This document shows positions 1,030 through 15,566 of a stretch of DNA of 64,000 nt, in pieces (positions within the stretch are counted from its first letter, which is position 1; each line of letters opens with the position of its first letter). The stretch is from Escherichia phage EC150, in sequence record ON210137.1. One strand, written 5' to 3'. A program made the position numbers and the translations under genes. A model generated the notes under the pieces. The model was not told the DNA's origin. It saw only the letters and a program-made list of their open reading frames with translations, and did not search any database.

Positions 1030-1038
1030 ATATCAAAA

Positions 1039-1363: not shown

Positions 1364-1365
1364 TT

Positions 1366-2287: not shown

Positions 2288-2544
2288 ATAAGGGACCGAT
2301 GGCGCCACTGGCCCTTGCCGCGCGGAAGCTTCGACAGGCCGTTAATGGGTCGCGGCCCGTGGTGTTAACACTAGACGATGCAAAGGCACTGGTAGAGCTA
2401 CTCGACGAGAACAACCGACGCAAGAATAGAGAGAACACATTAAAGTACCGCGTCACGCCAGCCGGACGCGAGTGTGAAAAGAAAGCTTACTTGCGGCGTA
2501 AGTTAAGGTCAGTCGGTCTACACGAAGAAGCCGACCAGATTTAA
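2284..2544 (+). CDS. hypothetical protein (86 aa)
   Basis: ORF in same-strand array with start overlapping upstream stop; followed by terminator copy 2. Confidence 0.45.
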   Translation: MNKGPMAPLALAARKLRQAVNGSRPVVLTLDDAKALVELLDENNRRKNRENTLKYRVTPAGRECEKKAYLRRKLRSVGLHEEADQI

Positions 2545-2551
2545 TTCGAAA

Positions 2552-2580
2552 AGGTGAGCTAAATGCTTGCCTTTTTATTT
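2552..2580 (+). terminator. rho-independent terminator, copy 2 of the duplicated element
   Basis: Same stem-loop as 1039-1059 (AGGTGAGC TAAAT GCTTGCCT) followed by TTTTTATTT. Confidence 0.5.
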
Positions 2581-2622
2581 GTCTGTATTATACTTACTTC
2601 ATCAAGCAAAGGAGAGGTTATT

Positions 2623-2928
2623 ATGAGTACCGAAGCTATGAAGAGCAAGTTGTTTGAGGTGATGCAGCCCGCTGTCGAGTGCGGAGCTATTCAGGAGTTC
2701 AAAGAGACGCAAGAAGGCGGTGAGCCAGTATTCTTCTTCAAGAACAAGAAAGGTGCGGCGGCTGCGGTGATGCTCTTGAAGAACAGCGACACGACCTTTA
2801 TCCTTTGCGCAGGCGGTTATGACCTTGTTGCCGATGATGCCTACATCACCTGTGCGACGGGTCTTAATCCTATGTTAACGTTTGAGCGTCGCGGCATTCG
2901 TGTTGCGACGTTTGGAGGCGGTTTATGA
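2623..2928 (+). CDS. hypothetical protein (101 aa)
   Basis: Start adjusted to internal ATG 5 nt after AAGGAGAGG. Confidence 0.5.
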   Translation: MSTEAMKSKLFEVMQPAVECGAIQEFKETQEGGEPVFFFKNKKGAAAAVMLLKNSDTTFILCAGGYDLVADDAYITCATGLNPMLTFERRGIRVATFGGGL

Positions 2929-3110
2929 GCACCGAAGTCCATAACGCATCAGCACTGGTAAGCTTTTACCGAAACAAAGGCGTGTCGCTAGTTAAAACGC
3001 CGCAAGGCATGCTGTTCTTTGGCACGCGATTCCTTAAGGCTTCGGAGCGTGAAACGCTGTCTAAATTCGACCAGAAGACATTACACGCAGTTTGGAGAAG
3101 ACAGCAATGA
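2925..3110 (+). CDS. hypothetical protein (61 aa)
   Basis: Short ORF with start/stop overlaps on both sides. Confidence 0.35.
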   Translation: MSTEVHNASALVSFYRNKGVSLVKTPQGMLFFGTRFLKASERETLSKFDQKTLHAVWRRQQ

Positions 3111-3307
3111 CATCAAATCTTAAGGCCCGTTTATTATTCATCAAGCCGCATGTGCCGTATAAGATTAGTAAGCGCACCTGGATTAACATTTACAACCGCA
3201 GCGGCGACCGTTGTTTGTACAAGGCAAAGCGGCGCAAGAAGGTATATTTAAAGGCTGTGATGTCGCAACCCGTCGATGCATTCAACATCGGCGAAAATGA
3301 ACTGTAA
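3107..3307 (+). CDS. hypothetical basic protein (66 aa)
   Basis: Internal ATG overlapping upstream stop (ATGA); track ORF begins with TTG at 3092. Confidence 0.4.
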   Translation: MTSNLKARLLFIKPHVPYKISKRTWINIYNRSGDRCLYKAKRRKKVYLKAVMSQPVDAFNIGENEL

Positions 3308-3339
3308 ATCGGCTATCAAATTGAACTCGGAGTAAAGAA

Positions 3340-3849
3340 ATGAAAATCGAACAACTCGAAGCAGTATTGGAAATGGCTGTAAAGGCAGGCGCAATCAGAA
3401 GCTATAGCCGCGAGAAGTCGGATGACGCTGCGCACTTTTGTCGCAACTTCTATATCGTCGGCAACCTTAATGACCACTACACCATCGAGTGGTATACTAA
3501 TATGATGGCTCTTAAGTCGCGCACCATGGAGCTTTGGTGTGATGATGTCTGCTTATCCAACACCCATCCATCCTACGACGTTGCGTTAGCATTCTATTAC
3601 GGAAGCCGTCAACCTGTCGCCCACATCGGTGAGAAGTATGAGCACCTTAAGGCGCGACCAGAGGAATCAATGGACGGTTGGATTTATTGGGCTGGCGTCA
3701 ACAATCCTGTTCCTGGTAAGAAGGTCATGTTTAAATTGCGCTTCGGCTATGAATCTAAATCACCTGCTCTTTCAGATGATTTGAGATGGGAGATTGTTGA
3801 CGATGCTTATGCAACTGACATCATTGCTTATCGAGTCATGGAGGAATAA
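3340..3849 (+). CDS. hypothetical protein (169 aa) sharing a C-terminal domain with 5004-5429
   Basis: C-terminal ~58 aa (W.G.NPVPGK.V.F.L..GY.SK...SD.L.W...AYRV) is paralogous to the C-terminus of the 5004-5429 product. Confidence 0.55.
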   Translation: MKIEQLEAVLEMAVKAGAIRSYSREKSDDAAHFCRNFYIVGNLNDHYTIEWYTNMMALKSRTMELWCDDVCLSNTHPSYDVALAFYYGSRQPVAHIGEKYEHLKARPEESMDGWIYWAGVNNPVPGKKVMFKLRFGYESKSPALSDDLRWEIVDDAYATDIIAYRVMEE

Positions 3850-4190
3850 TGGAAGAGCAAGAAGGCCGTGAGCTAACGTTCGACGAGCAAATGCAAGAGC
3901 TTCAGCGCACATCGTCGCTGCGCGGTAAGGTTGTTGACATCGAGGCGAGCGAATCCAACCTCACCCAGTGGCGGCTCAAGTGCACCAGCACAAGCAAGGA
4001 TATGTTAAGCTTCAAAGTCGGTCAGACTTATTTGCTTTATGAGGCAAAAGGACTTATTATTGATGGAAGGCAAATTGTCTTCACGGTAGTCAGCGGAATG
4101 CATTGGTTCGTGAAGCGTGATGTCGAGGGCCGTGACATGTTTGTCGCAGGATTTCCAGAAACAAGATTCCAATTGGAGAAGGTTAAATGA
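3849..4190 (+). CDS. hypothetical protein (113 aa)
   Basis: ORF in same-strand array; start abuts upstream stop. Confidence 0.5.
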   Translation: MEEQEGRELTFDEQMQELQRTSSLRGKVVDIEASESNLTQWRLKCTSTSKDMLSFKVGQTYLLYEAKGLIIDGRQIVFTVVSGMHWFVKRDVEGRDMFVAGFPETRFQLEKVK

Positions 4191-4519
4191 AATTGAAATG
4201 GTACGTGGACCCTGAGACGACAGGCTCATACAGGTCATTCCAACGTCGCGGCTGGCCGATTTGTTACAGCGGCAATCCCGATAAAGAAGACTGCGAGATG
4301 CTCGCCGCGATAGTAAGTCTTAATCATGACGGCTATGAAGGCCACTACGCGAGAGCAACCAACCTTCGGCTCAAGGTGCGCATCCATTTCAAGGTCGCAG
4401 GCGAGGACCGCACCGGACTCTCCAAAGAAGAGTTCAGCAGCATTGCCGAAGCAAAGGCATGGCTAAAGGCGTTCTACAAGGCCAATCCTAAATTTTATCC
4501 AACTAAGGGTGCATCATGA
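4187..4519 (+). CDS. hypothetical protein (110 aa)
   Basis: ORF in same-strand array; ATGA overlap. Confidence 0.5.
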   Translation: MKLKWYVDPETTGSYRSFQRRGWPICYSGNPDKEDCEMLAAIVSLNHDGYEGHYARATNLRLKVRIHFKVAGEDRTGLSKEEFSSIAEAKAWLKAFYKANPKFYPTKGAS

Positions 4520-5007
4520 CTAACAAAACGCAACGCATCAATTTTGAAGGTAAAGAATACGAAATAGACGCTCGTGCAAGATTCGTTGCGCGCGATTCTA
4601 ACGGAACCATCTGGGCGTATGAGGGAAAGCCTGCATGGAACGATTGGTGCGGCCAGTGGGGATATGCAATTGGCGATTCACTTTGGTGTAAGCAAATTGG
4701 TGATGGAAAGATGTTCAAAGAGAATAAACCATCATCACGTGATTCATTGAAGGAAGTCGAATCAATCAAAATCCAAGACCAAGCGCCATCGACAGATAAC
4801 CAATACGCAGTCGGGCAACGTGACATCGAGCAACTCGACGAGGGCGGCTATTATACGCGCCACATCTATGCCATGACGCATGAAGGACTTTGCAGCAAGT
4901 CGGACATCGCCGCTGAACTGGCCCATCGTGACTTACAAATCGACCTTCTCAAGATAGAAGTGCAGAACTTACGAAACACCCTGTTAAATACTTGGAGCTT
5001 AAAATGA
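4516..5007 (+). CDS. hypothetical protein (163 aa)
   Basis: ORF in same-strand array; ATGA overlap. Confidence 0.5.
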   Translation: MTNKTQRINFEGKEYEIDARARFVARDSNGTIWAYEGKPAWNDWCGQWGYAIGDSLWCKQIGDGKMFKENKPSSRDSLKEVESIKIQDQAPSTDNQYAVGQRDIEQLDEGGYYTRHIYAMTHEGLCSKSDIAAELAHRDLQIDLLKIEVQNLRNTLLNTWSLK

Positions 5008-5429
5008 TACAACGTTACGACCTGACATATGATGTGGTATCAGAAGATTGCTCCATCACTCCCGTTCCAGAGAGTCATGAAGGACGTTTTGTTGCATATG
5101 AGGACTATGCCGCGCTGGAAGCGAAATACAGTGAAGCGCAACGCGAGTTGGTTGCATTACGCTCACAGGTCCGTGATGCATCGGTGCTTGTTAAGCAGTT
5201 GCACGACGTTGTTGCTACTATAGGCGTGGATGATGATGCGCCGAAGGAGGAAGCGTGGACCGTGTGGCTTGGTGGCGCGAATCCGGTGCCTGGGAAGATG
5301 GTTGAGTTTGAATTACTCAACGGTTATAAATCAAAAGAGGCCGTCCCTTCGGATAATTTGAACTGGGGTGCAGTGGCAAGCCCGACTGGCGCAAAGATTG
5401 TTGCTTATCGGGTCGTTAAGGAGGGGTGA
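5004..5429 (+). CDS. hypothetical protein (141 aa) sharing a C-terminal domain with 3340-3849
   Basis: Internal ATG overlapping upstream stop, GGAG 6 nt upstream; C-terminal ~58 aa paralogous to 3340-3849 product. Confidence 0.55.
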   Translation: MIQRYDLTYDVVSEDCSITPVPESHEGRFVAYEDYAALEAKYSEAQRELVALRSQVRDASVLVKQLHDVVATIGVDDDAPKEEAWTVWLGGANPVPGKMVEFELLNGYKSKEAVPSDNLNWGAVASPTGAKIVAYRVVKEG

Positions 5430-5962
5430 TGGGCGGCTTTTGGCGTAAAGCTAAATACTCTAAAGACTTGCATTACTTCTTGGATAATGAAGGCATAAGT
5501 ATATGTGGTAGGTACAGAAGGGATAATGAATCAGCGTCGCAAAGTAATAAGGCTGAATGGTTACTCAAGGAAGAATGCAAAGTTTGCCGCAAACGTTTTT
5601 GTGACAAAACTAGCATAACTGATTACATAAAGGAGCTTAGAAAAAGATGTAAAAGCCCGCAAGAGTTTGCCATAGCTCTTTGGGATGATCACCCTGAGTT
5701 GAGAAGCGAATGGTTAAAGACTGATGCAATCAATTATATCTTCAAATCGAAATACAGGACGACAGCAAGATATAAAATGGATGAAGCAGTAATTCAGAAG
5801 GTATTTTCTTATTGGAGGGATACAGTCGATATTGTGAAAATAAAGAAATACCAAAACGAAGTGCTGCTGGAATTGGAGAGGATTGGCTATAAAGTCACCA
5901 ATAAAATGATAAAAGAAGAAATAAAAAGGAGAACGGAAAAGGGACTGATGCCTAAGATATAG
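5426..5962 (+). CDS. hypothetical basic Cys-containing protein (178 aa)
   Basis: AT-rich coding region whose composition differs from neighbours; no recognisable domain. Confidence 0.45.
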   Translation: MMGGFWRKAKYSKDLHYFLDNEGISICGRYRRDNESASQSNKAEWLLKEECKVCRKRFCDKTSITDYIKELRKRCKSPQEFAIALWDDHPELRSEWLKTDAINYIFKSKYRTTARYKMDEAVIQKVFSYWRDTVDIVKIKKYQNEVLLELERIGYKVTNKMIKEEIKRRTEKGLMPKI

Positions 5963-6209
5963 TGAATAAACGAACACTGTTTACGTGTTTTGAAGAATGG
6001 AATGTGTGCAATGGGTCGCTTTATGCGGCCTTTTGTCGTTTGGGTCGTGTTTTGCGATGGAATAATTATGATGAGGTGTTTTATTTATTGATTGTGCGGA
6101 AATATTTAGAAATATATTTCATAGGTCGTGTCTATTGGTCCGTGGTGTTTGTTAGATTATATCTATGGATTGAAATTTTAGTGTCGTGAAACGTGGTGTT
6201 TGAACACAT

Positions 6210-6575
6210 TTGATACGCCTAAAATACGGCTAAAAATTAAGCGTATCATGGCTGCAGGCCGCGTCGTTCCTGGATTCTTCTTTTTAAAATTGGTACACCC
6301 TTACGTCATGATACGTCATGGTTTTTTATCCGTATCAGTGTACAGCCCTTGCCGCGCCTGGCTTGTACATTAATCTTACGGATGATACGGATAAAACTGG
6401 GCATCGTTATATATAAAACTCCAAAAATAAATAAACTCCATTTTAAAAACATTTATATTAATTTTTTTCATATCCTCATACTTATGTTAATTTATATATT
6501 TAACGTATCATCCGTAAGATATAAGTAAAAACAAAGACTTGCGGCAATACGGATGATACGTCATGATACGCTTCA
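6210..6575. repeat. repeat-flanked AT-rich element, copy A
   Basis: Multiple copies in both orientations of CGTATCATCCGTA / TACGGATGATACG (9-mer unit TCATCCGTA) flanking a ~100-bp AT-rich core (6400-6500); homologous to 22190-22460. Confidence 0.6.
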
Positions 6576-6717
6576 ACCAGCCAGCAGCGGCTAAGTCATT
6601 GATTTGCATAACAAGCGGCGAAAGGGATGGATTTCTTTTATACGTATCAAACAGTACACCACGCACCACGGTCCGCTATTCATTCAGTACTATGATTTGT
6701 GTACGTTTACAGCCAAT

Positions 6718-6746
6718 TTGAACATCAATCTGCACTTGAATATAAT
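6718..6746 (+). promoter_or_regulatory. sigma70-type promoter, near consensus
   Basis: TTGAAC, 17-bp spacer, TATAAT, about 50 bp upstream of the ATG at 6799. Confidence 0.55.
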
Positions 6747-6774
6747 GTTCATTCATTGTATAATTCACACTATT

Positions 6775-7981
6775 AATTTGCACTATGGGATTTGCACTAT
6801 GAGTCAAGATTATGTAGCAATGCCTGAAGACTTTGAAGACCCGCGATTTGCAGAGCATAATCAGGCATTATTCGATGAGTTCATTGACCTTGTTATTCAG
6901 GGCCATGACATGCGCGCAGCTTTTGCACTAGTATTTGGCATGGAGGTTGCGACCGATAACTACACTGGCCAGCGAGTCCTCTGCACGCAACGCAATCCGT
7001 ACTACAAGATGCGCTACAAAAAGCGTATGGAAGAGATGCCATTGAAGGAATTGTGGAGCGTAAAGAGTTCCATCCACAATTTAGTGAAGCTTGTGCGTGA
7101 TCCAGAAGTCGCGGCGTCAGCCAAGCTTAATGCCATTCGTGAACTGAATATCATCTACGGCATCACGATGATTGATGAGAATGGCAATAGTAAAATGGGC
7201 CGTTCCATGGACGATTTCTACAAGGATTTTGGAGAGGCAGCCAAAGAGGGTGAGCAATTCTCCCGCCACTAGCCAATTTGCACTATAAAACGGCCCTAGA
7301 ACACATTTTCTCCACTTCTAGGGCCATCGGTAATACGACGGGGAAGGTTACAACCATAAACGCGTTAGAAAGTGTATTATTATAAGTCATCTTTTAGTCA
7401 CTTTACGTAACAATTTACGACCTTCCGCCGTCCAGTCGAACGACTCCACCAGCAGATTTGCACTATAACCTAAGACGATGCGCCCTTTCTCGTTATCGAC
7501 CCGCCAACAAGTCTCGAATAGCATTCGATTTGCACTATTAACTATCGCCGCAACGCGCGCTGGGTAAGCGCAATTTGCACTATGGTCGTAAAGGGATAAG
7601 GTGCGACCACTTCCGATGGACAACGTAGCGATGAGAATAAGCGTATTCATAAGCCACCAATTTGCACTATGAAAAGCGACCCCGAAGGGCCGCCATTCGA
7701 TTAGATGATCTGGAATGTGTATGACTTGTTGCCGAACTCGAAGTTCAAGCGCCCAGCTTCCTTAAGCTTCATGCGGAAGCGAATGTGCTTGCTATCCGGT
7801 AATCCCAGCGCGATGAAAGCTACGCGGACCGATTTGAACTCGCCTACACCCTCGACCATAACGCCGTTACGGGTGAGACGCTTTTGCGCCACTTCCTTAT
7901 TATCCCAACTTTTTGCAATGCCTTCGCTATTCGAACGGCGATGGGAAGAAGTTCCATTTTGCACTACGCAATTTGCACTAT
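6775..7981 (+). repeat. array of 9 same-orientation copies of an AATTTGCACTAT-like 11-12-mer
   Basis: Copies at 6775, 6790, 7275, 7456, 7528, 7572, 7659, 7956 and 7970; irregular spacing; two copies overlap the start of the 6799 gene. Confidence 0.6.
6799..7272 (+). CDS. hypothetical protein (157 aa), possible regulatory or DNA-binding protein
   Basis: ATG embedded in a motif copy and downstream of the near-consensus promoter; function is inference only. Confidence 0.5.
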   Translation: MSQDYVAMPEDFEDPRFAEHNQALFDEFIDLVIQGHDMRAAFALVFGMEVATDNYTGQRVLCTQRNPYYKMRYKKRMEEMPLKELWSVKSSIHNLVKLVRDPEVAASAKLNAIRELNIIYGITMIDENGNSKMGRSMDDFYKDFGEAAKEGEQFSRH

Positions 7982-8327
7982 CGTTTAGGCCGCTCTTAAC
8001 GAAGGCTTCATACTCTTCGTCGGTCATCGCGTCGAGTTCTTCCTGAGTCGGCTCAGACTTTTTAACGACCGCACGCGCCTTATGCGTTTTTACATCGCTG
8101 GGCACTTCCTCGCGCGGCTTCGCGTCGGGAATGGGCGATTCGTTGGACGGCTCATCGAGCGCGTTCAAGGACTCGATTAACGCGATTACGCGAGTCTCGG
8201 CGGTCCGGCGGTCCGCGAACTTTTTAATCGGCTTCGAACCGGAATTTGCGTTGTAAAATGCAACGAGGTCGGCGGTCTTAGTTGCGATAACGTCGCCGCT
8301 AGTCGAGAAGCGATTTAAGCTAACCAT
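7701..8327 (-). CDS. hypothetical protein (208 aa)
   Basis: AGGAG 6-7 nt upstream of start at 8327; 5' half CpG-rich like the adjacent island; 3' part overlaps two motif copies so extent is uncertain. Confidence 0.5.
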   Translation of the reverse strand: MVSLNRFSTSGDVIATKTADLVAFYNANSGSKPIKKFADRRTAETRVIALIESLNALDEPSNESPIPDAKPREEVPSDVKTHKARAVVKKSEPTQEELDAMTDEEYEAFVKSGLNDSANCVVQNGTSSHRRSNSEGIAKSWDNKEVAQKRLTRNGVMVEGVGEFKSVRVAFIALGLPDSKHIRFRMKLKEAGRLNFEFGNKSYTFQII

Positions 8328-8407
8328 AATAAACTCCTATTTGTTAGGGCGCTAAGCGCGAAAGAATTTTATTAAAGCGCCGCGCACGACGCTCTTAAAA
8401 TCCTCTC

Positions 8408-8692
8408 TTACGCTTCGACGAGGGAGAAGGTTTCAAATTCTTCTTCGCCCATAACGAGTAAAATATTCCCGATTTCGACCGCTTCGAAGAAGTATCCGTT
8501 AACGTTTACTTCGAAGGCTTCGCGGTCCGATTCCGGTAACGCCGCGTAAAGTTTAAAAGCCTCGGCGACCGTTACCCCACCCGCTTCGATAGTTTGGTCT
8601 ACGTTCGCGGCGTAGACTTCGGATAAATTTTGTTTTACGCCGTAGTTCTCGACGATAGCGTTACGGATAGAAGAAACGTTAAGAATAGCCAT
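8408..8692 (-). CDS. small acidic protein (94 aa), paralog of 9326-9616
   Basis: N-terminus and V.(V/I)NG(Y/F)...(V/I)EIG block align with the 9326-9616 product; conserved leader CTCCCAACTAGGAG upstream. Confidence 0.55.
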   Translation of the reverse strand: MAILNVSSIRNAIVENYGVKQNLSEVYAANVDQTIEAGGVTVAEAFKLYAALPESDREAFEVNVNGYFFEAVEIGNILLVMGEEEFETFSLVEA

Positions 8693-8832
8693 TTTAAACT
8701 CCTAGTTGGGAGAGGCGTTAACGACCTATTCGTTAACTCATCCCGTCCCGATATGAGTACATTATAATATAGTGTAGAAAAAAGTAAAGCACTTTTTCGA
8801 TAAAAATGCGATAAATTATTTTATCTTTTTCC

Positions 8833-8860
8833 TTTACTTCTTCGTACACTCGCGTATACT
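8833..8860 (+). promoter_or_regulatory. sigma70-like promoter, duplicated element copy 1
   Basis: TTTACT, 16-bp spacer, TATACT; whole ~45-bp unit (CTTTACTTCTTCGTACACT ... TTTATATCGAGA) repeated at 9229-9272. Confidence 0.4.
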
Positions 8861-8915
8861 TGTTTATATCGAGACGGGCGATGGCCTTCCTTCTACTAGC
8901 ATCGGGAGTTTTATT

Positions 8916-9218
8916 ATGACTACTTTAATCTCTTCTATCCTTACTTACGACGAAGACCGTTTAACCGTTCGTTCTCTTATCGCCGCCGTTAACGCGGAAC
9001 TAGAATCCACCATCATTAAGGTCCGCGCGGTCGCTTTCGTCGGCCTTTCCTTCGACGATATTAAGTATGCCGAACGTAGCGCCATCCGCTTCGCGAAGAC
9101 CGACGACGAAGCCGTTACCCTTATCGAGACGGTTACGCCGCGCGGCGAAGCGTTAATTATCGTCGAGTATATCGACGTAGAGGGCGATAAGGCTTATAAA
9201 TATTTTATCGCAAAATAA
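8916..9218 (+). CDS. small acidic protein (100 aa)
   Basis: ORF with its own copy of the duplicated promoter; CpG-rich codon usage unlike the rest of the window. Confidence 0.5.
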   Translation: MTTLISSILTYDEDRLTVRSLIAAVNAELESTIIKVRAVAFVGLSFDDIKYAERSAIRFAKTDDEAVTLIETVTPRGEALIIVEYIDVEGDKAYKYFIAK

Positions 9219-9229
9219 CGAAAAAGTGC

Positions 9230-9258
9230 TTTACTTCTTCGTACACTAAGACTATAAT
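9230..9258 (+). promoter_or_regulatory. sigma70-like promoter, duplicated element copy 2
   Basis: TTTACT, 17-bp spacer, TATAAT; same unit as 8832-8874. Confidence 0.4.
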
Positions 9259-9325
9259 GTTTTATATCGAGAGGGGAGAGGAAGCGAATAGGTCGCCTTC
9301 CCGCCCTCCCAACTAGGAGAATATT

Positions 9326-9616
9326 ATGATTACTTTATCCGCTATCCGTTCCGCTCGCGTCGAGACTTCCGAAAACTCTAACGTATTTGGCGAAACCTTA
9401 GAGAGCGTTTATCTCTCTAACGTCGACGCGACTATCGAATCTATTTATGAGCCGATCAACTTCCTCGACCTTTACAAGTATCGCGACGAGGACATCGTAT
9501 CATCCCGCGTAACTATCAACGGCTTCGTCTATACGATTACCGAAATCGGCGGCGAATATATCGCGGTCCCGCAACTCGGCGGCGAAGTAACTTATTTTAA
9601 AATCGTCTCCTTATAA
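9326..9616 (+). CDS. small acidic protein (96 aa), paralog of 8408-8692
   Basis: Aligns with the 8408-8692 product; AGGAG RBS inside conserved leader CTCCCAACTAGGAG. Confidence 0.55.
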   Translation: MITLSAIRSARVETSENSNVFGETLESVYLSNVDATIESIYEPINFLDLYKYRDEDIVSSRVTINGFVYTITEIGGEYIAVPQLGGEVTYFKIVSL

Positions 9617-9781
9617 TACCCTTCCGTTACTAATAGGCCGCGCTTAGTCGCGGCTTTTCTTCGTCCCTATCCCGATGCGCGTCTACGCGAAAACTCCTTT
9701 ATCCTTCCCTTCGTCGTCGCATAATCTTCTTCGAGATGCTCCTTAGTTCGCATAACAGGTATTACGTTAAATGGAGAACAT

Positions 9782-9854
9782 CGCGTAAGTCCTTGTTTTA
9801 TATAGACACCTATATCGGACCGTTAGGGCGGGTCGCGTAAGTCGTTGTTTTATA
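9782..9854. repeat. 21-bp direct repeat, 2 copies
   Basis: CGCGTAAGTCCTTGTTTTATA at 9782 and CGCGTAAGTCGTTGTTTTATA at 9834. Confidence 0.4.
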
Positions 9855-9979
9855 AAGGCGCAAAACTTTCCCTTCGTTCCGAACTAAAACGAGAAATGTG
9901 CCGACCCTTCGCCCGAAAATAGTACGTATGCGAAATTACATGCATCTCGAATAATCCCTCCCGATATTATCCTACACGC

Positions 9980-10042
9980 AATCATTCGCTTTCGAATCAT
10001 TATGCTTCATATTGTTATGCGTCGAATCATTCGCTTTCGAAT
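9980..10042. repeat. 18-bp direct repeat, 2 copies
   Basis: AATCATTCGCTTTCGAAT at 9980 and 10025. Confidence 0.4.
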
Positions 10043-10131
10043 TGTAACGCTGGAAACTGTAACGGCGATTGATTATTGCGTTCGTGTGGTTTTTATGGCA
10101 TGGGTCTTTTGGTGCGTTTTGGTACTTGATG

Positions 10132-10244
10132 AAATTTGCAGTACACTAATCAAAATACGACACATTTGGTCCACTAACTTTTCAAAGAAAAAGTCCTAGA
10201 CAGTACCGTACTATTTTGTACCCACAGGAAATTTGCAGTACACT
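10132..10244 (+). repeat. 16-bp direct repeat, 2 copies, related to the AATTTGCA motif family
   Basis: AAATTTGCAGTACACT at 10132 and 10229. Confidence 0.4.
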
Positions 10245-10314
10245 CCTGCGCGGCAGGCAAAACAAAGGGCCGCACTAAGCGACCCACGATTCACGGTTAA
10301 ATCAGCAACACCCA

Positions 10315-10695
10315 CTATTCGCTCTTATGGGCATCACCAAAGCCATCCGCAATCTGGCTGATCAATGATTCAATGGACACAGTTTTACCAATTGATCGAG
10401 CGGTAATAGCAAGCATATTATCAATCAAACCATGATTGGATGCGTATGGTTCAGGTTTTGAATCATCTTCAGGACAACCAAAAAGCTGGTCGCGCAAACT
10501 TTCGAGAGAACGCTCAACATTTTCCAACTTCTCTTCTAAATCGGATTGGCGACGTAAAACCCATGTCAAGTCACGGTTGCCAACTTCCAATCCATCAGAA
10601 TAGCAAGGTGGAGCGTCAATTTTGTTGCTGGAACCAAAAGCAGTGCCGCTGCCTTTAGTATAAGTATGGCTCATAGAATCATTTTTATTTGACAT
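10315..10695 (-). CDS. hypothetical protein (126 aa)
   Basis: Minus-strand ORF in accessory block; no recognisable domain. Confidence 0.45.
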   Translation of the reverse strand: MSNKNDSMSHTYTKGSGTAFGSSNKIDAPPCYSDGLEVGNRDLTWVLRRQSDLEEKLENVERSLESLRDQLFGCPEDDSKPEPYASNHGLIDNMLAITARSIGKTVSIESLISQIADGFGDAHKSE

Positions 10696-10769
10696 ATCAT
10701 TACCTTTAATATTTGGTGATTAACAATAACTATAATAAAGCCGCATAGCGCGGCATTCAAATCGATTTA

Positions 10770-11018
10770 TTAATTGTGACGATTGGATTCATCAATCGAT
10801 ACCAATTGTGCAGGGTTGCCGGATACCGTTGCGCCGATGATTCCCATTTGAGAGAAAAATTCTGAATAAACCTCTTTCCAGTACTTGCGCGCTGCTTTCT
10901 GGGCTTGACCTTTGCGCTTATAACTTTTGCCTTGAAAGATGAAGCGGTCTTTTGGAGCGTAATACTCCACCACACCTTCCAGCCATTGTAAGAATGCTAC
11001 TGATTCATTTTTATTCAT
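10770..11018 (-). CDS. hypothetical basic protein (82 aa)
   Basis: Minus-strand ORF in accessory block. Confidence 0.4.
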   Translation of the reverse strand: MNKNESVAFLQWLEGVVEYYAPKDRFIFQGKSYKRKGQAQKAARKYWKEVYSEFFSQMGIIGATVSGNPAQLVSIDESNRHN

Positions 11019-11025
11019 GTTAACC

Positions 11026-11481
11026 TCAATATTTTAATAAGAAAGCGCCCAACCAACTTTCCTCAATCTCGCGGCCAGTAGCCACACGGTCGGTCTTTGA
11101 TATGGGTCTGGATTCGCCACAGGGCAACCCGTCCTGTAGTTGTGTACTATTGCCAATCCTCACCAGAACCTTTCCATCAGGGTCGATATAAGCGCGACAA
11201 CCCATGATTTCGAGTCGTTGTAGACACTGGCGAATCGTTTTCAGCTTCTCACCGGACCTGATAGAGCGCGGTCGCGACCGCTGACCGTTCTTATTCACTT
11301 TGCGCTTTGCAACCGGAATATCATTGATGCGCTGCGACTTGGGTCGATAATAGGCTTCTTCGCCAGGAGTTGCACCTGGCGTCAGTTCGCGTTTGAGATC
11401 CTTTTCAATATCGATGATCATGATTATGCCGCTGCAGCGTAAACAATTGCATAAGCAATTCCAAACAGCGCAGCAATACAT
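11026..11481 (-). CDS. hypothetical basic protein (about 151 aa)
   Basis: Start set at first ATG (11481); track ORF begins with TTG at 11493; Cys-rich N-terminus, Arg/Lys-rich middle. Confidence 0.4.
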   Translation of the reverse strand: MYCCAVWNCLCNCLRCSGIIMIIDIEKDLKRELTPGATPGEEAYYRPKSQRINDIPVAKRKVNKNGQRSRPRSIRSGEKLKTIRQCLQRLEIMGCRAYIDPDGKVLVRIGNSTQLQDGLPCGESRPISKTDRVATGREIEESWLGAFLLKY

Positions 11482-11522
11482 ACCGTGCCCCAAAATGCAA
11501 AGCGTCGTGACTCTTTATCCAT

Positions 11523-11768
11523 TTATTTATCCCCCAACGTCCATGAATTAAACACTAATTTTGCCATTTCATCTTGTGAAACCACATTATAGTGCTTAGG
11601 CAAATCGCTTTCTGATAATACCTTCTGGGCTTCTTCTTTTGTCTCAAAGAGAGGGATGAAAAAGACCAAGCGGTTATCTTCAGGATCAATGCCGCAGATG
11701 ACGTATTTTGGCAATGCTTTTGCTTTTTGAGTCTTATCAATATCTTCAAATTTCATAATACACCTCAC
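11523..11768 (-). CDS. hypothetical protein (81 aa)
   Basis: ORF immediately downstream of the tail-fibre gene on the same strand. Confidence 0.45.
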   Translation of the reverse strand: MRCIMKFEDIDKTQKAKALPKYVICGIDPEDNRLVFFIPLFETKEEAQKVLSESDLPKHYNVVSQDEMAKLVFNSWTLGDK

Positions 11769-11810
11769 TTGTTAACGTATAATGAGTATAACTTAATCGA
11801 GCATAAAGTA

Positions 11811-11830
11811 AAGGCGCTTTTCAGCGCCTT
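11811..11830 (-). terminator. putative terminator after tail-fibre gene
   Basis: Hairpin AAGGCGC/GCGCCTT with 5-nt loop, then a T-rich stretch on the minus-strand transcript. Confidence 0.4.
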
Positions 11831-11837
11831 GAGTGAA

Positions 11838-14153
11838 TTATTTTGCTGATTTCAGCACGGCTATCTCTGCCTTGAGTTCATCAATCTGATCCATCAATGC
11901 GAGAATAGCCTCGTGGTGCAATGCCGCTGCAACGCCGTAAGTGTCAACTGACTTGATATCTTCGACAACAGTCCCATCCTTGAGTTCCGTGTTTGAATAT
12001 TTCAAAGTTTTTACTGCGTCAGGAAATACACCTTCTACATCTTGAGCTATAAATCCGATGCCATTCGGTTTCTCTGACTTATCAAGGCGCTCCCAAGTCA
12101 CACCCTTGATCAATCTCATCTTTCCTAACGGGTCGGAAATCCTTTGAATATTTGTTTTGACCCTCTCATCAGACGTGCTGACCCAGTTCCCTGCAGTAGC
12201 AGTACCATCAGGCATAAATTTGAAATCTGCTGCAGCGCCTTGCCCATTGTTTATGGATATTTGCGCGTGCATCAAATCAGTTCCAGTACCTCGAACGCCT
12301 CCGAATGTATAGCTGCCAGCATACCAATCCCCTGAAAAATATGATACATACCCAGGCGTTGACTGGTTGAAGTTTATCATCCTCATACCGTTGCTTTCAT
12401 ACGCTGAAACGCCTACTGAATTCAACGGTTGCACAACAAGGTCTTTTGGTCTGAGATATGCATTAACATTCAGCGCCCCGTCTGTCCTTTCCGTACTAAT
12501 TTGATTTATGGAGTTAGGGAAATAAAATGTGCCATCTTGCGCAAACTTCCATTCTTGCACCCCATTAGATATCACAGCACCTTGTTCAGACGTTAATCCA
12601 TCAATCTTACCGTATGCTTGCAAGAATGCTTGATACGCAATGTTGGTGCCAATTTTATATTCAGATTTTACACTGCCGCCACTGACAAGCGTTCCGGTTG
12701 CAGGTTTTACTGCGTCACCATTAATAACGCTCCAAGTCGTATTCGCAGCAGCAAATCCACCCGATGCACGAATCACCCAAACGCCTACAAAGTTACGACC
12801 CATTATTTCACTGTTTGAACGGCCATAAACCGGACTTACTCGCGAAGCATCAAAACTCACCCTAATAACACCATTACCAGTTACCGGTTCTGGTGACAAT
12901 GGTGTTTCTACCTGACCCGGTACAATAGCACCCGTCTGCCCGTAGGCGACGACGCCACCAATATCCCCGTAAATGTTTGGTGCAGCTGAATCAAACACAA
13001 CACCATCAGCGTTGGAGTTTGCGGTGCCATTTCCTGCGCCGTCACCTCGTCCATAAAGAGCGGCTAATGAACCGACTTGAACGCCGTTTTTGTCGGGCAC
13101 ACGGAAAGTCGTTGAGCCATTACCAAGAGAATACTTTCCGCGCTTTGTTGGGTCCGCAAGCCAATCCGCATCAGCAATAGGAGTCAGCATTTGAGCATAT
13201 GCCCAAAGCTCAGGCCAGTCTGCGCGGTTAAGCAATTGCCCGTCTGCAACAACTTCATATGGCTGGATGTAAGCACGGCTATCACGAAGATGAAAATCAC
13301 CAACACCATAGTTCATTACACCGTTCATGTTCGGTCCAACGGTGCCAGTGTTGATAAGGTTTTCAACCCAACGTTTAGTCGCAGCATCATAATCATTCAC
13401 AGGGTCACCAGCAAGCGGAGTTGGGCCTGTCGGTCGAATATTCAACCAAGCCTGCGCATTATCCCCTGATCCTGTGCCGCCCATGGAAGTGGGCACGATA
13501 TTTTGATCAGCGACTTGTCCGAATCCAAAAGCAGACTTCATGCCCTGAATAGTACTCTGCCCTGTGCCACCGTTTGCCACTGGTACTACATCAAGTTCGC
13601 TATAAACCTTTTTCCAAGGTGACCAAAAGTCGCCATTAAATACCCTGTTGTATTCAGGGCCAACCGTTGCTGTGTATTTTTGTGAACAAGCATTTGCTGA
13701 AATTTGGATTACTTCCAATACTCCAGACGATAAGGTTGGGTAGTTCAAAGCAGGTGATGCTGATAGACTGTTCGGCTGGTAATATTGGCCAAACCATGAA
13801 CCAGTCAAAGCATTGAGATTTATTCCGTTAGGAATCTCTCCAAAGTTTCGGACAGTACCCGTCAAAGTCGCAGCAGTAGTTCGAATGGAAAGCATGTCGC
13901 CAGCCGCCCATGCACGCGCTGCAGTTCCTTCCTGTGCACGCTGCACGGTCAGGACGTTTCCAACAACGGCTGTTACTGTGACGATTTCGAATTGGAGGCC
14001 TGTCGCAGCGTCTACGATTGTCGCCACTACACGCTCGTTTGCAGCCAAGGTCGGAAATCCCGACCCTGAGCGAATTGTGATTGTGGTGTCTGAAGTCGTC
14101 GTTGGCTGAGCGAGCGCGACCTCAAAGTTGTTTTTGAATATTAGCCTTGGCAT
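11838..14153 (-). CDS. tail fibre/tailspike with C-terminal intramolecular chaperone (peptidase S74-like) domain
   Basis: 771 aa; DAATKRWVE collar-like motif; Gly/Ser/Thr-rich body; C-terminal SDERVKTNI...ISDPLGK...GVTW...GFIAQDVEGVFPDAV typical of auto-cleaving chaperone domains. Confidence 0.85.
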   Translation of the reverse strand: MPRLIFKNNFEVALAQPTTTSDTTITIRSGSGFPTLAANERVVATIVDAATGLQFEIVTVTAVVGNVLTVQRAQEGTAARAWAAGDMLSIRTTAATLTGTVRNFGEIPNGINLNALTGSWFGQYYQPNSLSASPALNYPTLSSGVLEVIQISANACSQKYTATVGPEYNRVFNGDFWSPWKKVYSELDVVPVANGGTGQSTIQGMKSAFGFGQVADQNIVPTSMGGTGSGDNAQAWLNIRPTGPTPLAGDPVNDYDAATKRWVENLINTGTVGPNMNGVMNYGVGDFHLRDSRAYIQPYEVVADGQLLNRADWPELWAYAQMLTPIADADWLADPTKRGKYSLGNGSTTFRVPDKNGVQVGSLAALYGRGDGAGNGTANSNADGVVFDSAAPNIYGDIGGVVAYGQTGAIVPGQVETPLSPEPVTGNGVIRVSFDASRVSPVYGRSNSEIMGRNFVGVWVIRASGGFAAANTTWSVINGDAVKPATGTLVSGGSVKSEYKIGTNIAYQAFLQAYGKIDGLTSEQGAVISNGVQEWKFAQDGTFYFPNSINQISTERTDGALNVNAYLRPKDLVVQPLNSVGVSAYESNGMRMINFNQSTPGYVSYFSGDWYAGSYTFGGVRGTGTDLMHAQISINNGQGAAADFKFMPDGTATAGNWVSTSDERVKTNIQRISDPLGKMRLIKGVTWERLDKSEKPNGIGFIAQDVEGVFPDAVKTLKYSNTELKDGTVVEDIKSVDTYGVAAALHHEAILALMDQIDELKAEIAVLKSAK

Positions 14154-14191
14154 TTTACGGTCCTCGTTTTGTCGACAACCGTATTATAACC

Positions 14192-14533
14192 TTAATTTCT
14201 TTTGAGAGGAATATGGCGGTTGCTGTCATTATTTGGTTTAATAATGAGCATAAAAACGATTAGAAAGATGATGGCTGATATACTTAATTCAATCAGCGCG
14301 GCTTGAGATATAGATTGATCTTCATGATACTGCTTTTGCATTTCTGCTTTCTTCTGAGCGCAAACTTCAGGTGATATGTAATCGCCTTTTGAGTTGCCAT
14401 AATAAATCTCGCCATTCTCAGAAATAAGCCTGCCGCAAATATCCGTGTCAGCCTTTGCGCTTGACATCATAATAACGGTGCCGATGATAGCGGCAATTGT
14501 CCAGATTAGCAGTTGTGATAAGGTATTATTCAT
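14192..14533 (-). CDS. membrane protein (113 aa)
   Basis: Hydrophobic segments at N-terminus and near C-terminus. Confidence 0.5.
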   Translation of the reverse strand: MNNTLSQLLIWTIAAIIGTVIMMSSAKADTDICGRLISENGEIYYGNSKGDYISPEVCAQKKAEMQKQYHEDQSISQAALIELSISAIIFLIVFMLIIKPNNDSNRHIPLKRN

Positions 14534-14728
14534 GATAACCTCTTTAATTCCCTTCCCATATCGGGAAGGGTGAATATTATTTTACGCGAAAGAATAGGCG
14601 CGTGCCACACAGCGAGTCCCAACGGCCCTCACCATCCCATATCGACCCAACACCAGCGGTGATTGGGCCAGCAGAATTGGCGGCATTGGCCCAGGCTAGA
14701 CGTTTCAACTTCCAACTGCACCAACGAT

Positions 14729-15388: not shown

Positions 15389-15566
15389 ATTACCTCCGGT
15401 TTTGAGTTAATATGATTATAATGCAGAATTTCAGAAAGGCAAACTTTTTGTGAATTTAAATTAAAAAAATGGCCAGAAATAATCTGGCCAAAAAGATCAC
15501 CCTTTATCCACTACTAAGCTGGAATCATAATTTTACTTGATATAGCTGTCTCAAGCAAACTATAAT

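What the first reader, a model, noticed from the sequence alone, without database searches (positions are those of the whole stretch)
7701..9620. CpG-rich island of small acidic genes in divergent orientation with duplicated promoters
From about 8000 to 9650 the sequence is visibly enriched in CG dinucleotides (TTCG, CGTC, GCGC) and uses codons unlike the rest of the window. It holds two leftward genes (7701-8327, 8408-8692) and two rightward genes (8916-9218, 9326-9616). The 8408-8692 and 9326-9616 products are paralogs on opposite strands, each behind the conserved leader CTCCCAACTAGGAG. A ~45-bp promoter-like unit (CTTTACTTCTTCGTACACT ... TATAAT/TATACT ... TTTATATCGAGA) recurs before each plus-strand gene and, inverted, before the minus-strand paralog. 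Small acidic early proteins with strong promoters and foreign composition are typical of anti-restriction or other anti-defence factors; that role is hypothesis only.
Basis: partly seen in the sequence, partly recalled or inferred. Interest (0 to 1): 0.7.

Follow-up and report, generated by a model that had tools for sequence, protein, structure and literature searches.

The report
Early phage genes stripped of TG/CA
A 2-kb block of strongly promoted early genes in the terminal repeat of an E. coli phage has lost almost every TG and CA dinucleotide, in genes and spacers alike and in three related phage lineages, which points to an unknown agent that reads these dinucleotides early in infection.

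Summary
The window is a Wifcevirus, an E. coli myophage about 96% identical to Bas100. CpG o/e is 2.0-2.4 at 7750-10000, against 1.13±0.25 window-wide.

The CpG excess is secondary. The primary signal is near-elimination of TG/CA (o/e 0.34/0.40 vs 1.18; 3-8 per 200 bp vs 28.4±5.4). It affects all codon positions, codon junctions and spacers.

With each protein sequence held fixed, the genes sit near the theoretical minimum (6-9 TG/CA vs 33-36 expected, z about -6 to -7). Cys, Trp and His are absent from the three small proteins.

The island lies in the right half of the 3.7-kb direct terminal repeat. It holds three copies of a conserved sigma70-type promoter. Equivalent purged islands occur in Serratia phage Hera and in a metagenomic relative, but not in a Pbunavirus or in T5.

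Every gene in the island is purged, whatever its ancestry, so this is a positional constraint and not foreign DNA.

The best reading is a T5-like pre-early module hidden from sequence-reading nucleases. The repeat lacks sites for the five restriction systems these phages resist and carries 5-7 sites for EcoP1_I, the one that restricts them.

The proteins' function remains unknown.

The parts
6440..10190 (.). Direct terminal repeat (DTR) of the phage genome. The island occupies its right half.
   Evidence: The WFC record carries an identical 3784-bp repeat at both ends, and its ends map to window 6440 and 10190. PhageTerm gives a DTR of 3673 bp in Mansfield. Korf et al. report 'terminal repeat of about 3.7 kb'.
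8000..9960 (.). TG/CA-purged island, which appears as CpG- and TpA-rich.
   Evidence: TG+CA is 3-13 per 200 bp here, against a window mean of 28.4 (sd 5.4). This is the only stretch of the 64-kb window with (TG+CA) o/e below 0.6. There are 62 TG/CA in 8200-9960 against about 250 expected.
7701..8327 (-). 208-aa basic protein (pI 8.9), PHROG 4730. It is a core gene of PB1-like myophages. Its N-terminal half is purged and its conserved C-terminal domain is not.
   Evidence: ORF. PHROG match, E 1.8e-88. Homologs in 355 phage records, including Pbunavirus and Serratia, Pantoea and Aeromonas phages. Resampling gives z -4.9 for the N-terminal half and -1.2 for the C-terminal half.
8408..8692 (-). 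94-aa acidic protein (pI 4.05), paralog of 9326-9616. It sits in a variable accessory slot.
   Evidence: It is absent in ECML-117 and replaced by an unrelated 104-aa allele in WFC that is equally purged. It has 6 TG/CA against 34.2 expected and a minimum of 4.
8708..8749 (-). 5'-UTR hairpin of the leftward transcript, with apical CGAAUAGGUCG, followed by the leader and SD CTCCCAACUAGGAG (8699-8712).
   Evidence: Fold of -17.1 kcal/mol. The inverted repeat matches the P3 leader (I5 and I6).
8761..8788 (-). Promoter P1: TTTACT, 16 nt, TATAAT.
8833..8860 (+). Promoter P2: TTTACT, 16 nt, TATACT, followed by TTTATATCGAGA.
   Evidence: (D7, D11).
8916..9218 (+). 100-aa acidic protein (pI 4.67). It is the conserved small gene (87-99% aa identity across the genus) and has a 125-aa ortholog in the metagenomic relative L012.
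   Evidence: It has 7 TG/CA against 36.1 expected and a minimum of 1.
9230..9258 (+). Promoter P3: TTTACT, 17 nt, TATAAT, followed by TTTATATCGAGA.
9271..9308 (+). 5'-UTR hairpin of the P3 transcript, with apical CGAAUAGGUCG, followed by the leader CTCCCAACTAGGAG (9306-9319).
   Evidence: -18.7 kcal/mol. The same apical sequence with a different lower stem occurs in Hera (L006 about 9928-9950).
9326..9616 (+). 96-aa acidic protein (pI 4.23), paralog of 8408-8692. It diverges fast between clades.
   Evidence: dN/dS against WFC is 0.47. It has 9 TG/CA against 33.2 expected and a minimum of 2.
9635..9656 (+). Intrinsic terminator of the rightward unit.
   Evidence: It is annotated as a terminator in Mansfield and WFC.
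7672..7700 (-). Intrinsic terminator-like hairpin plus T-run, just after the stop of the 208-aa gene.
   Evidence: Read from the sequence. The corresponding position in WFC is annotated as a terminator (1238-1255, minus strand).
9660..9960 (.). Non-coding tail of the island. It is nearly invariant among four Wifcevirus genomes, is still TG/CA-poor, and holds a 25-nt repeat at 9781 and 9833.
   Evidence: (D3).

Best explanation
The region is the immediate-early ('pre-early') module of a Wifcevirus. It lies in the direct terminal repeat, so a copy sits close to whichever genome end enters the cell first.

Three copies of one conserved sigma70-type promoter drive two divergent units, each with a structured 5' leader. 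The promoter is TTTACT, a spacer containing TCGTACACT, TATAAT/TATACT, then an initial transcribed TTATATCGAGA. One unit runs leftward (94-aa protein, then 208-aa protein). The other runs rightward (100-aa, then 96-aa).

The DNA of this module is under a strong, position-specific constraint against the dinucleotide step TG/CA, which overrides codon choice, protein composition and even the promoter consensus (the -35 element is TTTACT, i.e. TTGACA with its TG and CA removed). The most likely purpose is concealment. The first DNA exposed and expressed carries almost none of the motifs that an early-acting, sequence-reading nuclease needs. That nuclease could be a host restriction-type system or another TG/CA-reading agent. 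The concealment lasts until the module's products protect the rest of the genome, which has normal TG/CA content, as in the first-step-transfer region of T5.

Shown: the location, the promoters, the purge and its conservation.
Inferred: early expression, injection order, the identity of the agent, and the anti-defence role of the three acidic proteins.
For: 1. Location in the DTR, 150-2200 bp from the right physical end.
2. Three near-identical promoter units, also conserved in Hera and in the metagenomic contig L012, where the 19-mer CTTTACTTCTTCGTACACT is identical although the proteins are only about 30-35% identical.
3. The purge: TG/CA o/e is 0.34/0.40 vs 1.18. All eight TG/CA-containing trinucleotide pairs are depleted, to 0.06-0.48 of the rest of the window. 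Depletion is seen at codon junctions as well as within codons.
4. With the protein sequence fixed, observed counts are 6-9 against 33-36 expected (z -6.3 to -7.3) and close to the theoretical minimum. In L012, two genes sit exactly at the minimum (the ATG only), and 1127 bp contain just 5 TG/CA.
5. Positional, not ancestral: unrelated alleles and accessory genes inside the island are purged (WFC 104-aa allele 9 vs 39; ECML-117 extra gene 13 vs 29.9). Hera's in-island paralog gp23 is purged (16 vs 62) while its out-of-island paralog gp15 is not (137 vs 135). The adjacent TerS-like gene is not purged.
6. Phenotype fit: Bas98-101 resist EcoKI, EcoCFT_I, EcoRI, EcoRV and EcoCFT_II but are very sensitive to EcoP1_I. 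The DTRs of Bas98 and Bas100 contain none of the first four sites. They contain 0-1 of the EcoCFT_II candidates and 5-7 AGACC sites. The EcoCFT_II site was inferred from the published site counts as CACAG or GACAG, both of which contain CA/TG. Genome-wide, EcoCFT_II and EcoP1_I sites are equally common (87-93 vs 82-90).
7. Precedent: T5 and BF23 resist type I/II/III restriction only if sites are absent from the terminal-repeat FST region. Their pre-early genes also form two inversely oriented units (PMC10644984).
Against: - No expression, injection or restriction experiment exists for this region.
- Removing TG/CA abolishes only a minority to about half of possible restriction specificities (my estimate: about 23% of 6-bp palindromes and about 40-50% of type I/III sites). 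Purging AG/CT would cost fewer amino acids. General 'stealth' therefore does not explain why TG/CA was chosen, or why nearly every copy is removed.
- For four of the six restriction systems, the expected number of sites in 3.7 kb is 1 or fewer, so the phenotype fit rests mainly on EcoCFT_II versus EcoP1_I.
- The window's own genome carries one EcoKI site inside the island, at 9217.
- T5's FST region shows no comparable purge.
- The purge is strongest in the transcribed segments, which would also fit an RNA-level or transcription-coupled agent.
- The proteins match no known anti-defence family or fold.
Confidence: 0.45

Rival explanations
1. Self-immunity to the phage's own host-shutoff weapon. 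An early phage product (a DNase, an RNase or a transcription-arrest factor) attacks nucleic acid at very short TG/CA- or UG/CA-containing sites to destroy host DNA or mRNA. The early module, which must keep working during that time, is immune because it lacks the sites. The rest of the genome is protected by timing (delayed entry) or by switching the weapon off.
For: - Near-total removal of every TG/CA, down to the theoretical minimum, implies that each single occurrence is harmful. That fits a 2-3-nt specificity better than 5-7-bp restriction sites.
- In L012 and Hera the purge coincides with the promoter-to-terminator units and stops abruptly at the terminator.
- From my own knowledge, not checked here: T4 endonuclease IV prefers TCA, and chlorella-virus nicking enzymes have 3-nt sites.
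Against: - No nuclease domain was found in the island's proteins.
- The rest of the phage genome has normal TG/CA content and would need another form of protection.
- Two-step injection is not known for these phages.
Confidence: 0.2
2. A local, context-specific mutational bias removes TG/CA by transitions to CG or TA, without selection for concealment. Candidate sources are transcription-associated events, or repair or deamination acting on this hyper-transcribed DNA.
For: - All compensation is through transition-linked dinucleotides: CG rises by 0.95 and TA by 0.5, while the other dinucleotides are unchanged.
- Spacers are depleted as well.
- The depletion fades gradually along the 208-aa gene and the 87-aa gene (z -4.9, -1.2, -2.4).
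Against: - I know of no process that drives both T>C and G>A at TG.
- The transitions seen are also exactly the synonymous routes available under selection.
- The TG/CA that remain are the functionally required ones: ATG starts, the promoter's TACACT, and conserved Trp and His codons.
- Loss of Cys, Trp, His and Gln from the proteins, and a -35 element rewritten to TTTACT, are costly outcomes.
- The left half of the same DTR is not purged.
Confidence: 0.12
3. Foreign origin. The block was acquired horizontally from an unknown donor whose whole genome has this dinucleotide signature.
For: - The compositional contrast with the rest of the genome is sharp.
- The small proteins have almost no relatives in 1.84 billion representative proteins.
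Against: - The 208-aa gene is a vertically inherited core gene, and its promoter-proximal half is purged.
- Hera holds two paralogs, one purged inside the island and one normal outside it.
- Unrelated alleles and accessory genes in the same slots are all purged.
- The purge persists through divergence to 44-64% nucleotide identity.
- No donor lineage was found.
- There are no mobility genes.
Confidence: 0.05
4. Modification-free zone. Virion DNA carries an undiscovered base modification placed in a TG/CA context, which would also explain the broad restriction resistance. The early module avoids that context so that unmodified host RNA polymerase can read it immediately.
For: [quoted passage not shown]
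- The promoters themselves avoid TG/CA except for one conserved CA.
Against: - No methyltransferase, transglycosylase or hypermodification genes are annotated.
- Candidate nucleotide-metabolism genes (thymidylate synthase, kinase, MazG) are shared with Pbunavirus, which has no island.
- vB_Eco4M-7 was rebooted from PCR-derived, unmodified DNA (PMC11074155).
- EcoRI and EcoRV sites contain no TG/CA, yet these enzymes are resisted.
Confidence: 0.08

Closest known systems
First-step-transfer (pre-early) region of phage T5/BF23
   Same: - It lies in a long direct terminal repeat.
- It has two inversely oriented units of small genes behind strong host-type promoters.
- The phage resists restriction unless recognition sites lie in this region (PMC10644984). 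The Wifcevirus phenotypes fit the same rule.
- A repeat-rich non-coding stretch lies at the inner or outer border.
   Different: - No protein similarity to T5's FST genes.
- The module is 2 kb with 4 genes, against 10 kb with about 17.
- Two-step injection is not known for these phages.
- T5's FST has raised CpG (1.3-1.5 vs 0.5-0.9) but no TG/CA purge (TG/CA o/e 0.7-1.2). Here the purge is almost complete.
Restriction-site (palindrome) avoidance in phage genomes, e.g. T7 lacking EcoRI/EcoRV and having few GATC and CCWGG sites
   Same: Sequence-level evasion of host nucleases by not carrying their motifs. The DTR lacks the sites of five tested systems and all 124 Dcm/EcoRII-type sites of the window fall outside it.
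   Different: Classical avoidance removes specific 4-8-bp sites genome-wide. Here one dinucleotide step is removed wholesale from one 2-kb module. This reshapes codon junctions, amino-acid content and the -35 hexamer, while the rest of the genome is normal.
Early acidic anti-restriction proteins (Ocr of T7; ArdA)
   Same: They are small, acidic and first expressed from strong early promoters near the leading genome end. The phages resist type I restriction.
   Different: No Pfam match and no fold match in the PDB or BFVD to Ocr or ArdA, though with a model of only moderate confidence (pLDDT 68.9). The net charge (-5 to -12) is much lower than that of a DNA mimic such as Ocr. The function is untested.
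Host-takeover module in the terminal redundancy of Bacillus phage SPO1 (from my own knowledge, not checked here)
   Same: A cluster of small early genes with strong promoters located in a terminal repeat.
   Different: The host, the proteins and the scale are different. I know of no reported dinucleotide purge there.

Membership tests
T5-type pre-early (first-step-transfer) module | Located inside a long direct terminal repeat | tested here: met
   The DTR is 6440-10190 and the island 8000-9960.
T5-type pre-early (first-step-transfer) module | Divergent transcription units driven by strong host sigma70 promoters | tested here: met
   Three consensus-like promoters are arranged divergently, by sequence only. 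Expression timing was not measured.
T5-type pre-early (first-step-transfer) module | Two-step DNA entry with an injection stop signal | not testable with these tools
   The only evidence is repeat-rich, conserved non-coding DNA at 9660-10190.
T5-type pre-early (first-step-transfer) module | Homologs of A1, A2, dmp or other T5 FST proteins | tested here: not met
   tblastn of the five DTR proteins against T5 1-20000 gave nothing below E 0.27.
T5-type pre-early (first-step-transfer) module | Restriction sensitivity determined by sites in the repeat only | tested here: inconclusive
   The site maps fit the published EOP pattern for 6 systems, but no site-swap experiment exists.
DNA-mimic anti-restriction proteins (Ocr/ArdA) | Sequence family membership | tested here: not met
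   No Pfam, NCBIfam or PHROG hit for the three acidic proteins.
DNA-mimic anti-restriction proteins (Ocr/ArdA) | Fold resembling Ocr or ArdA with a DNA-like array of surface carboxylates | tested here: inconclusive
   The AF2 model has pLDDT 68.9 and is mostly beta. No PDB match reached E<=0.001, and the BFVD matches were only uncharacterised phage proteins.
DNA-mimic anti-restriction proteins (Ocr/ArdA) | Inhibition of type I restriction in vivo or in vitro | not testable with these tools
   An expression and challenge assay is needed.
Horizontally acquired genomic island | Atypical composition | tested here: met
Horizontally acquired genomic island | Patchy distribution, mobility genes, or an identifiable donor | tested here: not met
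   The island is present in all 28 Wifcevirus records. It has no integrase or transposase. No donor was found. A core gene and its in-island paralog are purged.
Classical restriction-site avoidance | Depletion of defined recognition sequences relative to k-mer expectation | tested here: inconclusive
   The depletion is at dinucleotide level. All eight TG/CA trinucleotide pairs are depleted, CAG/CTG most of all (0.06). Sites lacking TG/CA, such as AGACC, are not depleted.

The most novel reading that the evidence does not exclude
Enterobacteria, or these phages themselves, possess an early-acting agent that recognises nucleic acid at the level of the TG/CA step (or a 3-nt motif such as CWG or TCA). 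Each single occurrence in the first-expressed DNA or its transcripts is harmful. This phage group has answered by rewriting a whole gene module, including its promoters and protein alphabet, without that dinucleotide. That would be a new principle of self/non-self discrimination by dinucleotide content in bacteria-phage conflict, loosely comparable to CpG sensing in vertebrate antiviral defence.
Probability: 0.25. Interest if true: 0.92.

Novelty: new variant of a known kind. Interest (0 to 1): 0.8.

Why it matters
First, a near-complete purge of one dinucleotide step from a functional 2-kb gene module is, as far as I could find, undescribed. Full-text searches returned nothing relevant. It reaches the theoretical minimum in some genes and is kept across at least three phage lineages. 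It implies a strong selective or mutational agent that has not been identified.

Second, it offers a concrete, testable answer to a puzzle in the BASEL collection paper: why Wifcevirus phages, with no known genome protection, resist every tested restriction system except EcoP1_I, although EcoCFT_II sites are just as frequent. The terminal repeat carries 5-7 EcoP1_I sites and essentially none for the others.

Third, it marks four genes as prime candidates for new host-takeover or anti-defence functions. Two of them are fast-evolving paralogs in a variable slot. The phage group can now be handled on E. coli K-12 and rebooted from synthetic DNA.

Fourth, the signature, (TG+CA) o/e below 0.3 over at least 1 kb, is a simple screen for similar modules in other phages.

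Tried and rejected
- Codon-usage/tRNA explanation: rejected. TG/CA are equally missing at codon junctions (1-2 TG and 0-4 CA per gene, against 13.2 and 9.1 per 300 nt in reference genes) and in spacers.
- Amino-acid-composition artefact: rejected by synonymous resampling (z -6 to -10) with controls at z +0.3 to +2.3.
- Avoidance of start codons (NTG): rejected as the sole cause. CAG/CTG is the most depleted trinucleotide pair. CA is as depleted as TG on the sense strand where all genes share one strand (Hera, L012).
- mRNA-only agents such as MazF (ACA): they do not explain the symmetric loss of UG and CA on the sense strand.
- Homology and function searches gave nothing informative: Pfam, PHROGs (only 'unknown function' families), NCBIfam, PADLOC, a PDB profile search and Rfam.
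- The three word-indexed protein searches returned only close Wifcevirus relatives. The exhaustive HMM search added one subfamily (P0140) plus two repeat proteins that look like compositional matches.
- AF2 of the 208-aa protein as a single sequence was unusable (pLDDT 37.3) and was not searched. The model of the 96-aa family is of moderate confidence only, so the lack of fold hits is weak evidence.
- The exact-match scan for the promoter 18-mer in IMG/VR found only Wifcevirus contigs plus one chance match inside a coding region (L018).
- Pbunavirus Ab27 (whole genome) and the region examined in Aeromonas phage Gekk3-15 have no island. T5's FST has none either.
- The Davison 2015 T5 review could not be opened.

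Full report
**What the window is.**
The 4 kb around the finding is 93-96% identical to 28 Wifcevirus records. These are E. coli and Shigella myophages of 66-72 kb, including WFC, WFH, ECML-117, Mansfield and BASEL Bas98-101. The 208-aa protein is 100% identical to that of phage EC150. In all records the four genes of the finding are annotated as hypothetical proteins.

**Where the finding sits.**
In phage Mansfield the region lies inside a 3673-bp direct terminal repeat predicted by PhageTerm. Korf et al. report a terminal repeat of about 3.7 kb for WFC and WFH. The WFC record carries an identical 3784-bp copy at both ends, and its boundaries map to window 6440 and 10190. The finding therefore occupies the right half of the terminal repeat, and its right edge is 150-230 bp from the repeat boundary. 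The left half holds a small-terminase-like gene (6799-7272), an 87-aa gene, and an array of ATTTGCACTA motifs.

**Checking the observation.**
- CpG o/e is 1.7-2.4 in every 500-bp window from 7751 to 9751. The window-wide mean is 1.13 (sd 0.25).
- The ORFs are as described.
- The 94-aa and 96-aa products are paralogs: 33% identity over 82 residues, pairwise E 2e-6. The 100-aa product is unrelated by BLASTP.
- The leader CTCCCAACTAGGAG precedes both paralogs.
- The promoter unit is present three times: P1 at 8761-8788 (minus strand), P2 at 8833-8860 and P3 at 9230-9258. TTTACT-N15-19-TATAAT occurs twice against 0.01 expected by chance.
- The three small proteins are acidic (pI 4.05, 4.67 and 4.23). 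The 208-aa protein is basic (pI 8.9).

**What the composition signal really is.**
A full dinucleotide table shows that the CpG excess is secondary. In the island TG is at o/e 0.34 and CA at 0.40, against 1.18 elsewhere. Only CG (2.03 vs 1.08) and TA (1.17 vs 0.66) rise. All other dinucleotides are unchanged.

TG+CA per 200 bp falls to 3-8 across 8200-9700, against a window mean of 28.4 (sd 5.4). This is the only such stretch in the 64 kb. There are 62 occurrences in 8200-9960, where about 250 are expected.

All eight TG/CA-containing trinucleotide pairs are depleted, to 0.06-0.48 of the rest of the window. CAG/CTG is the most depleted. ATG/CAT is the least, because the start codons must stay.

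The depletion is present at codon positions 1-2 and 2-3 and at codon junctions. At junctions there are 1-2 TG and 0-4 CA per gene, against 13.2 and 9.1 per 300 nt in reference genes. Codon-junction CG rises from 9.6 to 25-29. Both TG and CA are missing on the sense strand.

Codons containing TG or CA are almost unused: CTG 0/28, TTG 1/28, GTG 1/39, TCA 1/31, CCA 0/11 and ACA 0/28.

The three small proteins contain no Cys, Trp or His, 3 Gln, and one internal Met in 290 residues. These are exactly the amino acids whose codons all contain TG or CA.

I resampled synonymous codons with the genome's own usage while holding each protein sequence fixed. Expected counts are 33-36 TG/CA per small gene. 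Observed counts are 6, 7 and 9 (z -7.3, -6.9 and -6.3). The theoretical minima are 4, 1 and 2.

Even the -35 hexamer reads TTTACT, which is the consensus TTGACA with its TG and CA removed.

**Is it inherited, foreign or positional?**
The purge is present in Mansfield, WFC, ECML-117, Bas98 and Bas100. It holds where WFC has diverged to 44-49% (the 8408-8692 slot) and 63-64% (9326-9616) nucleotide identity, while the promoters and leaders stay 92-100% identical.

- WFC's unrelated 104-aa allele in the first slot has 9 TG/CA against 39 expected.
- WFC's 96-aa allele has 6 against 30.4.
- ECML-117 lacks the 94-aa gene altogether and carries an extra 70-aa gene after the 96-aa gene. That gene has 13 against 29.9 expected and a minimum of 10.

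The 208-aa protein belongs to a family found in 355 phage records, including Pbunavirus and Serratia, Pantoea, Xanthomonas and Aeromonas phages. It is therefore a vertically inherited core gene. Its promoter-proximal half is purged (z -4.9) and its conserved C-terminal domain is not (z -1.2).

Serratia phage Hera (Myosmarvirus) has an equivalent island at L006 9200-10800 (TG o/e 0.17-0.30, CA 0.05-0.30, CG 1.7-2.4). It shares several features with the window:
- the same promoter architecture: TTTACT, 17 nt, TATAAT, then TTTATATCGAAA;
- the same 5'-leader hairpin apex, GCGAATAGGTCGC;
- two small acidic genes;
- a second copy of the 208-aa family, gp23, 37% identical to the window's protein (E 2e-28).

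Hera's gp23 is purged (16 TG/CA vs 62 expected). Its paralog gp15, 3 kb away and outside the island, is normal (137 vs 135).

A profile search of 1.84 billion representative proteins found one further subfamily of the paralogs. Its metagenomic contig, L012, has the same gene order: a TerS-like gene, an 87-aa-like gene, a 208-aa-like gene, then the island. It also carries the identical 19-mer promoter core CTTTACTTCTTCGTACACT.

L012 shows the most extreme purge. Between positions 5927 and 7053 (1127 bp) there are five TG/CA in all. Three are ATG start codons and two lie in one TGCA inside the second promoter. Two of its genes sit exactly at the theoretical minimum. In both L012 and Hera, TG/CA density returns to normal immediately after the terminator.

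A complete Pbunavirus genome (Ab27), the region examined in an Aeromonas relative, and the T5 FST region have no such island.

The constraint therefore belongs to the position, namely the early module next to the TerS gene and genome terminus in the enterobacterial branch. It does not come from the ancestry of the genes. This rules out simple horizontal acquisition.

**What the module is.**
Seven promoters from three lineages align to one unit: a -35 of TTTACT or TAGACT, a conserved spacer (TCGTACACT), a -10 of TATAAT or TATACT, and a conserved initial transcribed sequence TTATATCGAGACGGG.

The leaders fold into hairpins. In three cases these share the apex CGAAUAGGUCG over different lower stems. 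No Rfam family matches.

Terminators close both units, at 9635-9656 and at 7672-7700 (annotated in WFC).

The closest known arrangement is the pre-early first-step-transfer region of T5/BF23. That region also has divergent units of small genes behind strong host-type promoters, inside a terminal repeat. Those phages resist restriction provided that no recognition sites lie in the region.

**Link to published phenotypes.**
[quoted passage not shown] Their site counts are 87-93 for EcoCFT_II and 82-90 for EcoP1_I.

I reproduced the tabulated counts for AGACC, GAATTC and GATATC on the Bas100 genome and for AGACC and GAATTC on the Bas98 genome. I then asked which 5-mers give 87 sites in Bas100 and 93 in Bas98. 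Only CACAG and GACAG do, and both contain CA/TG.

In the terminal repeats of Bas98 and Bas100 there are no EcoKI, EcoAI-type, EcoRI or EcoRV sites. There are 0-1 CACAG sites, no GACAG sites, and 5-7 AGACC sites in both orientations.

So the only system that restricts these phages is the only one with several sites in the repeat, as the T5 rule predicts.

This is a correlation over six systems. For four of them, at most one site is expected in 3.7 kb. The window's own genome has one EcoKI site in the island, at 9217.

**The proteins.**
No Pfam, NCBIfam or PADLOC family matches any of them. PHROGs gives only an unknown-function family for the 208-aa protein. A profile of the 208-aa family finds nothing in the PDB.

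AlphaFold2 on the paralog family gave a moderate model, mostly beta (pLDDT 68.9, pTM 0.59). It matches only uncharacterised phage proteins (the WFH ortholog, Pantoea phage Kyle, Shigella phage MK-13) and nothing significant in the PDB. The single-sequence model of the 208-aa protein was unusable.

Between the two Wifcevirus clades, the 96-aa paralog has dN/dS 0.47 at 64% amino-acid identity, and the 100-aa gene 0.34. The neighbouring genes are at 0.05-0.08. Together with the presence/absence/replacement polymorphism of the 94-aa slot, this fits genes engaged in a host-phage conflict. It does not show what they do.

**Mechanism and its limits.**
I favour the following reading. The module is the first DNA to be exposed and expressed, and it is written so as to lack what an early-acting sequence reader needs. 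Its products then protect, or prepare the cell for, the rest of the genome.

- Removing TG/CA abolishes only about a quarter of 6-bp palindromes and about 40-50% of type I/III specificities (my estimate). Another dinucleotide pair, AG/CT, could be removed without losing any amino acid.
- The purge approaches the theoretical minimum, which implies that single occurrences matter.

These points suggest an agent with a 2-3-nt specificity for the TG/CA step. It could belong to the host or to the phage itself, for example a host-shutoff nuclease, RNase or transcription-arrest factor from which the early module must be immune. A context-specific mutational process and a modification-free zone are less likely but are not excluded. 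The experiments listed under next steps would separate these readings.

Noticed in passing
window 6776-7980 (+), and 10131-10147 and 10228-10244: Ten copies of ATTTGCACTA (8 exact, 2 with one mismatch) lie on the + strand around the TerS-like gene in the left half of the terminal repeat. A related 17-mer, GAAATTTGCAGTACACT, occurs twice, flanking the right repeat boundary (about 10190). This is a candidate recognition array for the small terminase or a regulator. The whole-window count (13 with up to 1 mismatch vs 6.4 expected) understates the clustering.
   Followed up: partly
window 6300-6570 and 22160-22470: Two AT-rich intergenic regions are packed with direct and inverted copies of GATACGGAT/ATCCGTATC (e.g. 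ACGTATCATCCGTA). One spans the left boundary of the terminal repeat (6440). The other lies upstream of a structural-gene block. They are also locally CpG-high and TG/CA-low. They could be an origin, a packaging site or regulator-binding sites.
   Followed up: no
window 9660-9960: The non-coding stretch after the rightward terminator is almost invariant among four Wifcevirus genomes. It contains a 25-nt repeat, TCGCGTAAGTCNTTGTTTTATAWAG, at 9781 and 9833. TCGAAT...ATTGT repeats follow at 9992-10050, and similar TCGAAT-rich repeats follow the island in contig L012 (7229-7409). The function is unknown (injection stop, replication or packaging signal?).
   Followed up: partly
window 8708-8749 (-), 9271-9308 (+); L006 about 9928-9950: The 5'-leader hairpins share the apical sequence CGAAUAGGUCG over different lower stems in two window leaders and one Hera leader. 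This suggests a conserved RNA element, such as an mRNA stabiliser or a protein-binding site. No Rfam match.
   Followed up: partly
T5 genome, L022 1-20000: T5's first-step-transfer repeat (1-10 kb) has CpG o/e of 1.0-1.5 (above 1.25 in eight of ten 1-kb windows), against 0.5-0.9 in the next 10 kb. TG/CA is only slightly lowered. This may be a much weaker relative of the same phenomenon.
   Followed up: no
L002 (ECML-117) 2320-2560 and 3266-3475; L003 (WFC) 1970-2284: The island has variable gene content. ECML-117 lacks the 94-aa gene, so the P1 leader joins the 208-aa gene directly. It also has an extra 70-aa gene annotated 'transcriptional regulator'. WFC has an unrelated 104-aa gene in the 94-aa slot. 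All are TG/CA-purged at synonymous sites.
   Followed up: yes
Bas98/Bas100 whole genomes (L009+L005, L010+L011): The recognition site of the type III system EcoCFT_II is not given in the text of the BASEL papers. The published site counts narrow it to CACAG or GACAG.
   Followed up: yes
window 9217-9229: This genome has one EcoKI site (AACGAAAAAGTGC) just upstream of promoter P3. It is absent from the repeats of Bas98 and Bas100.
   Followed up: partly
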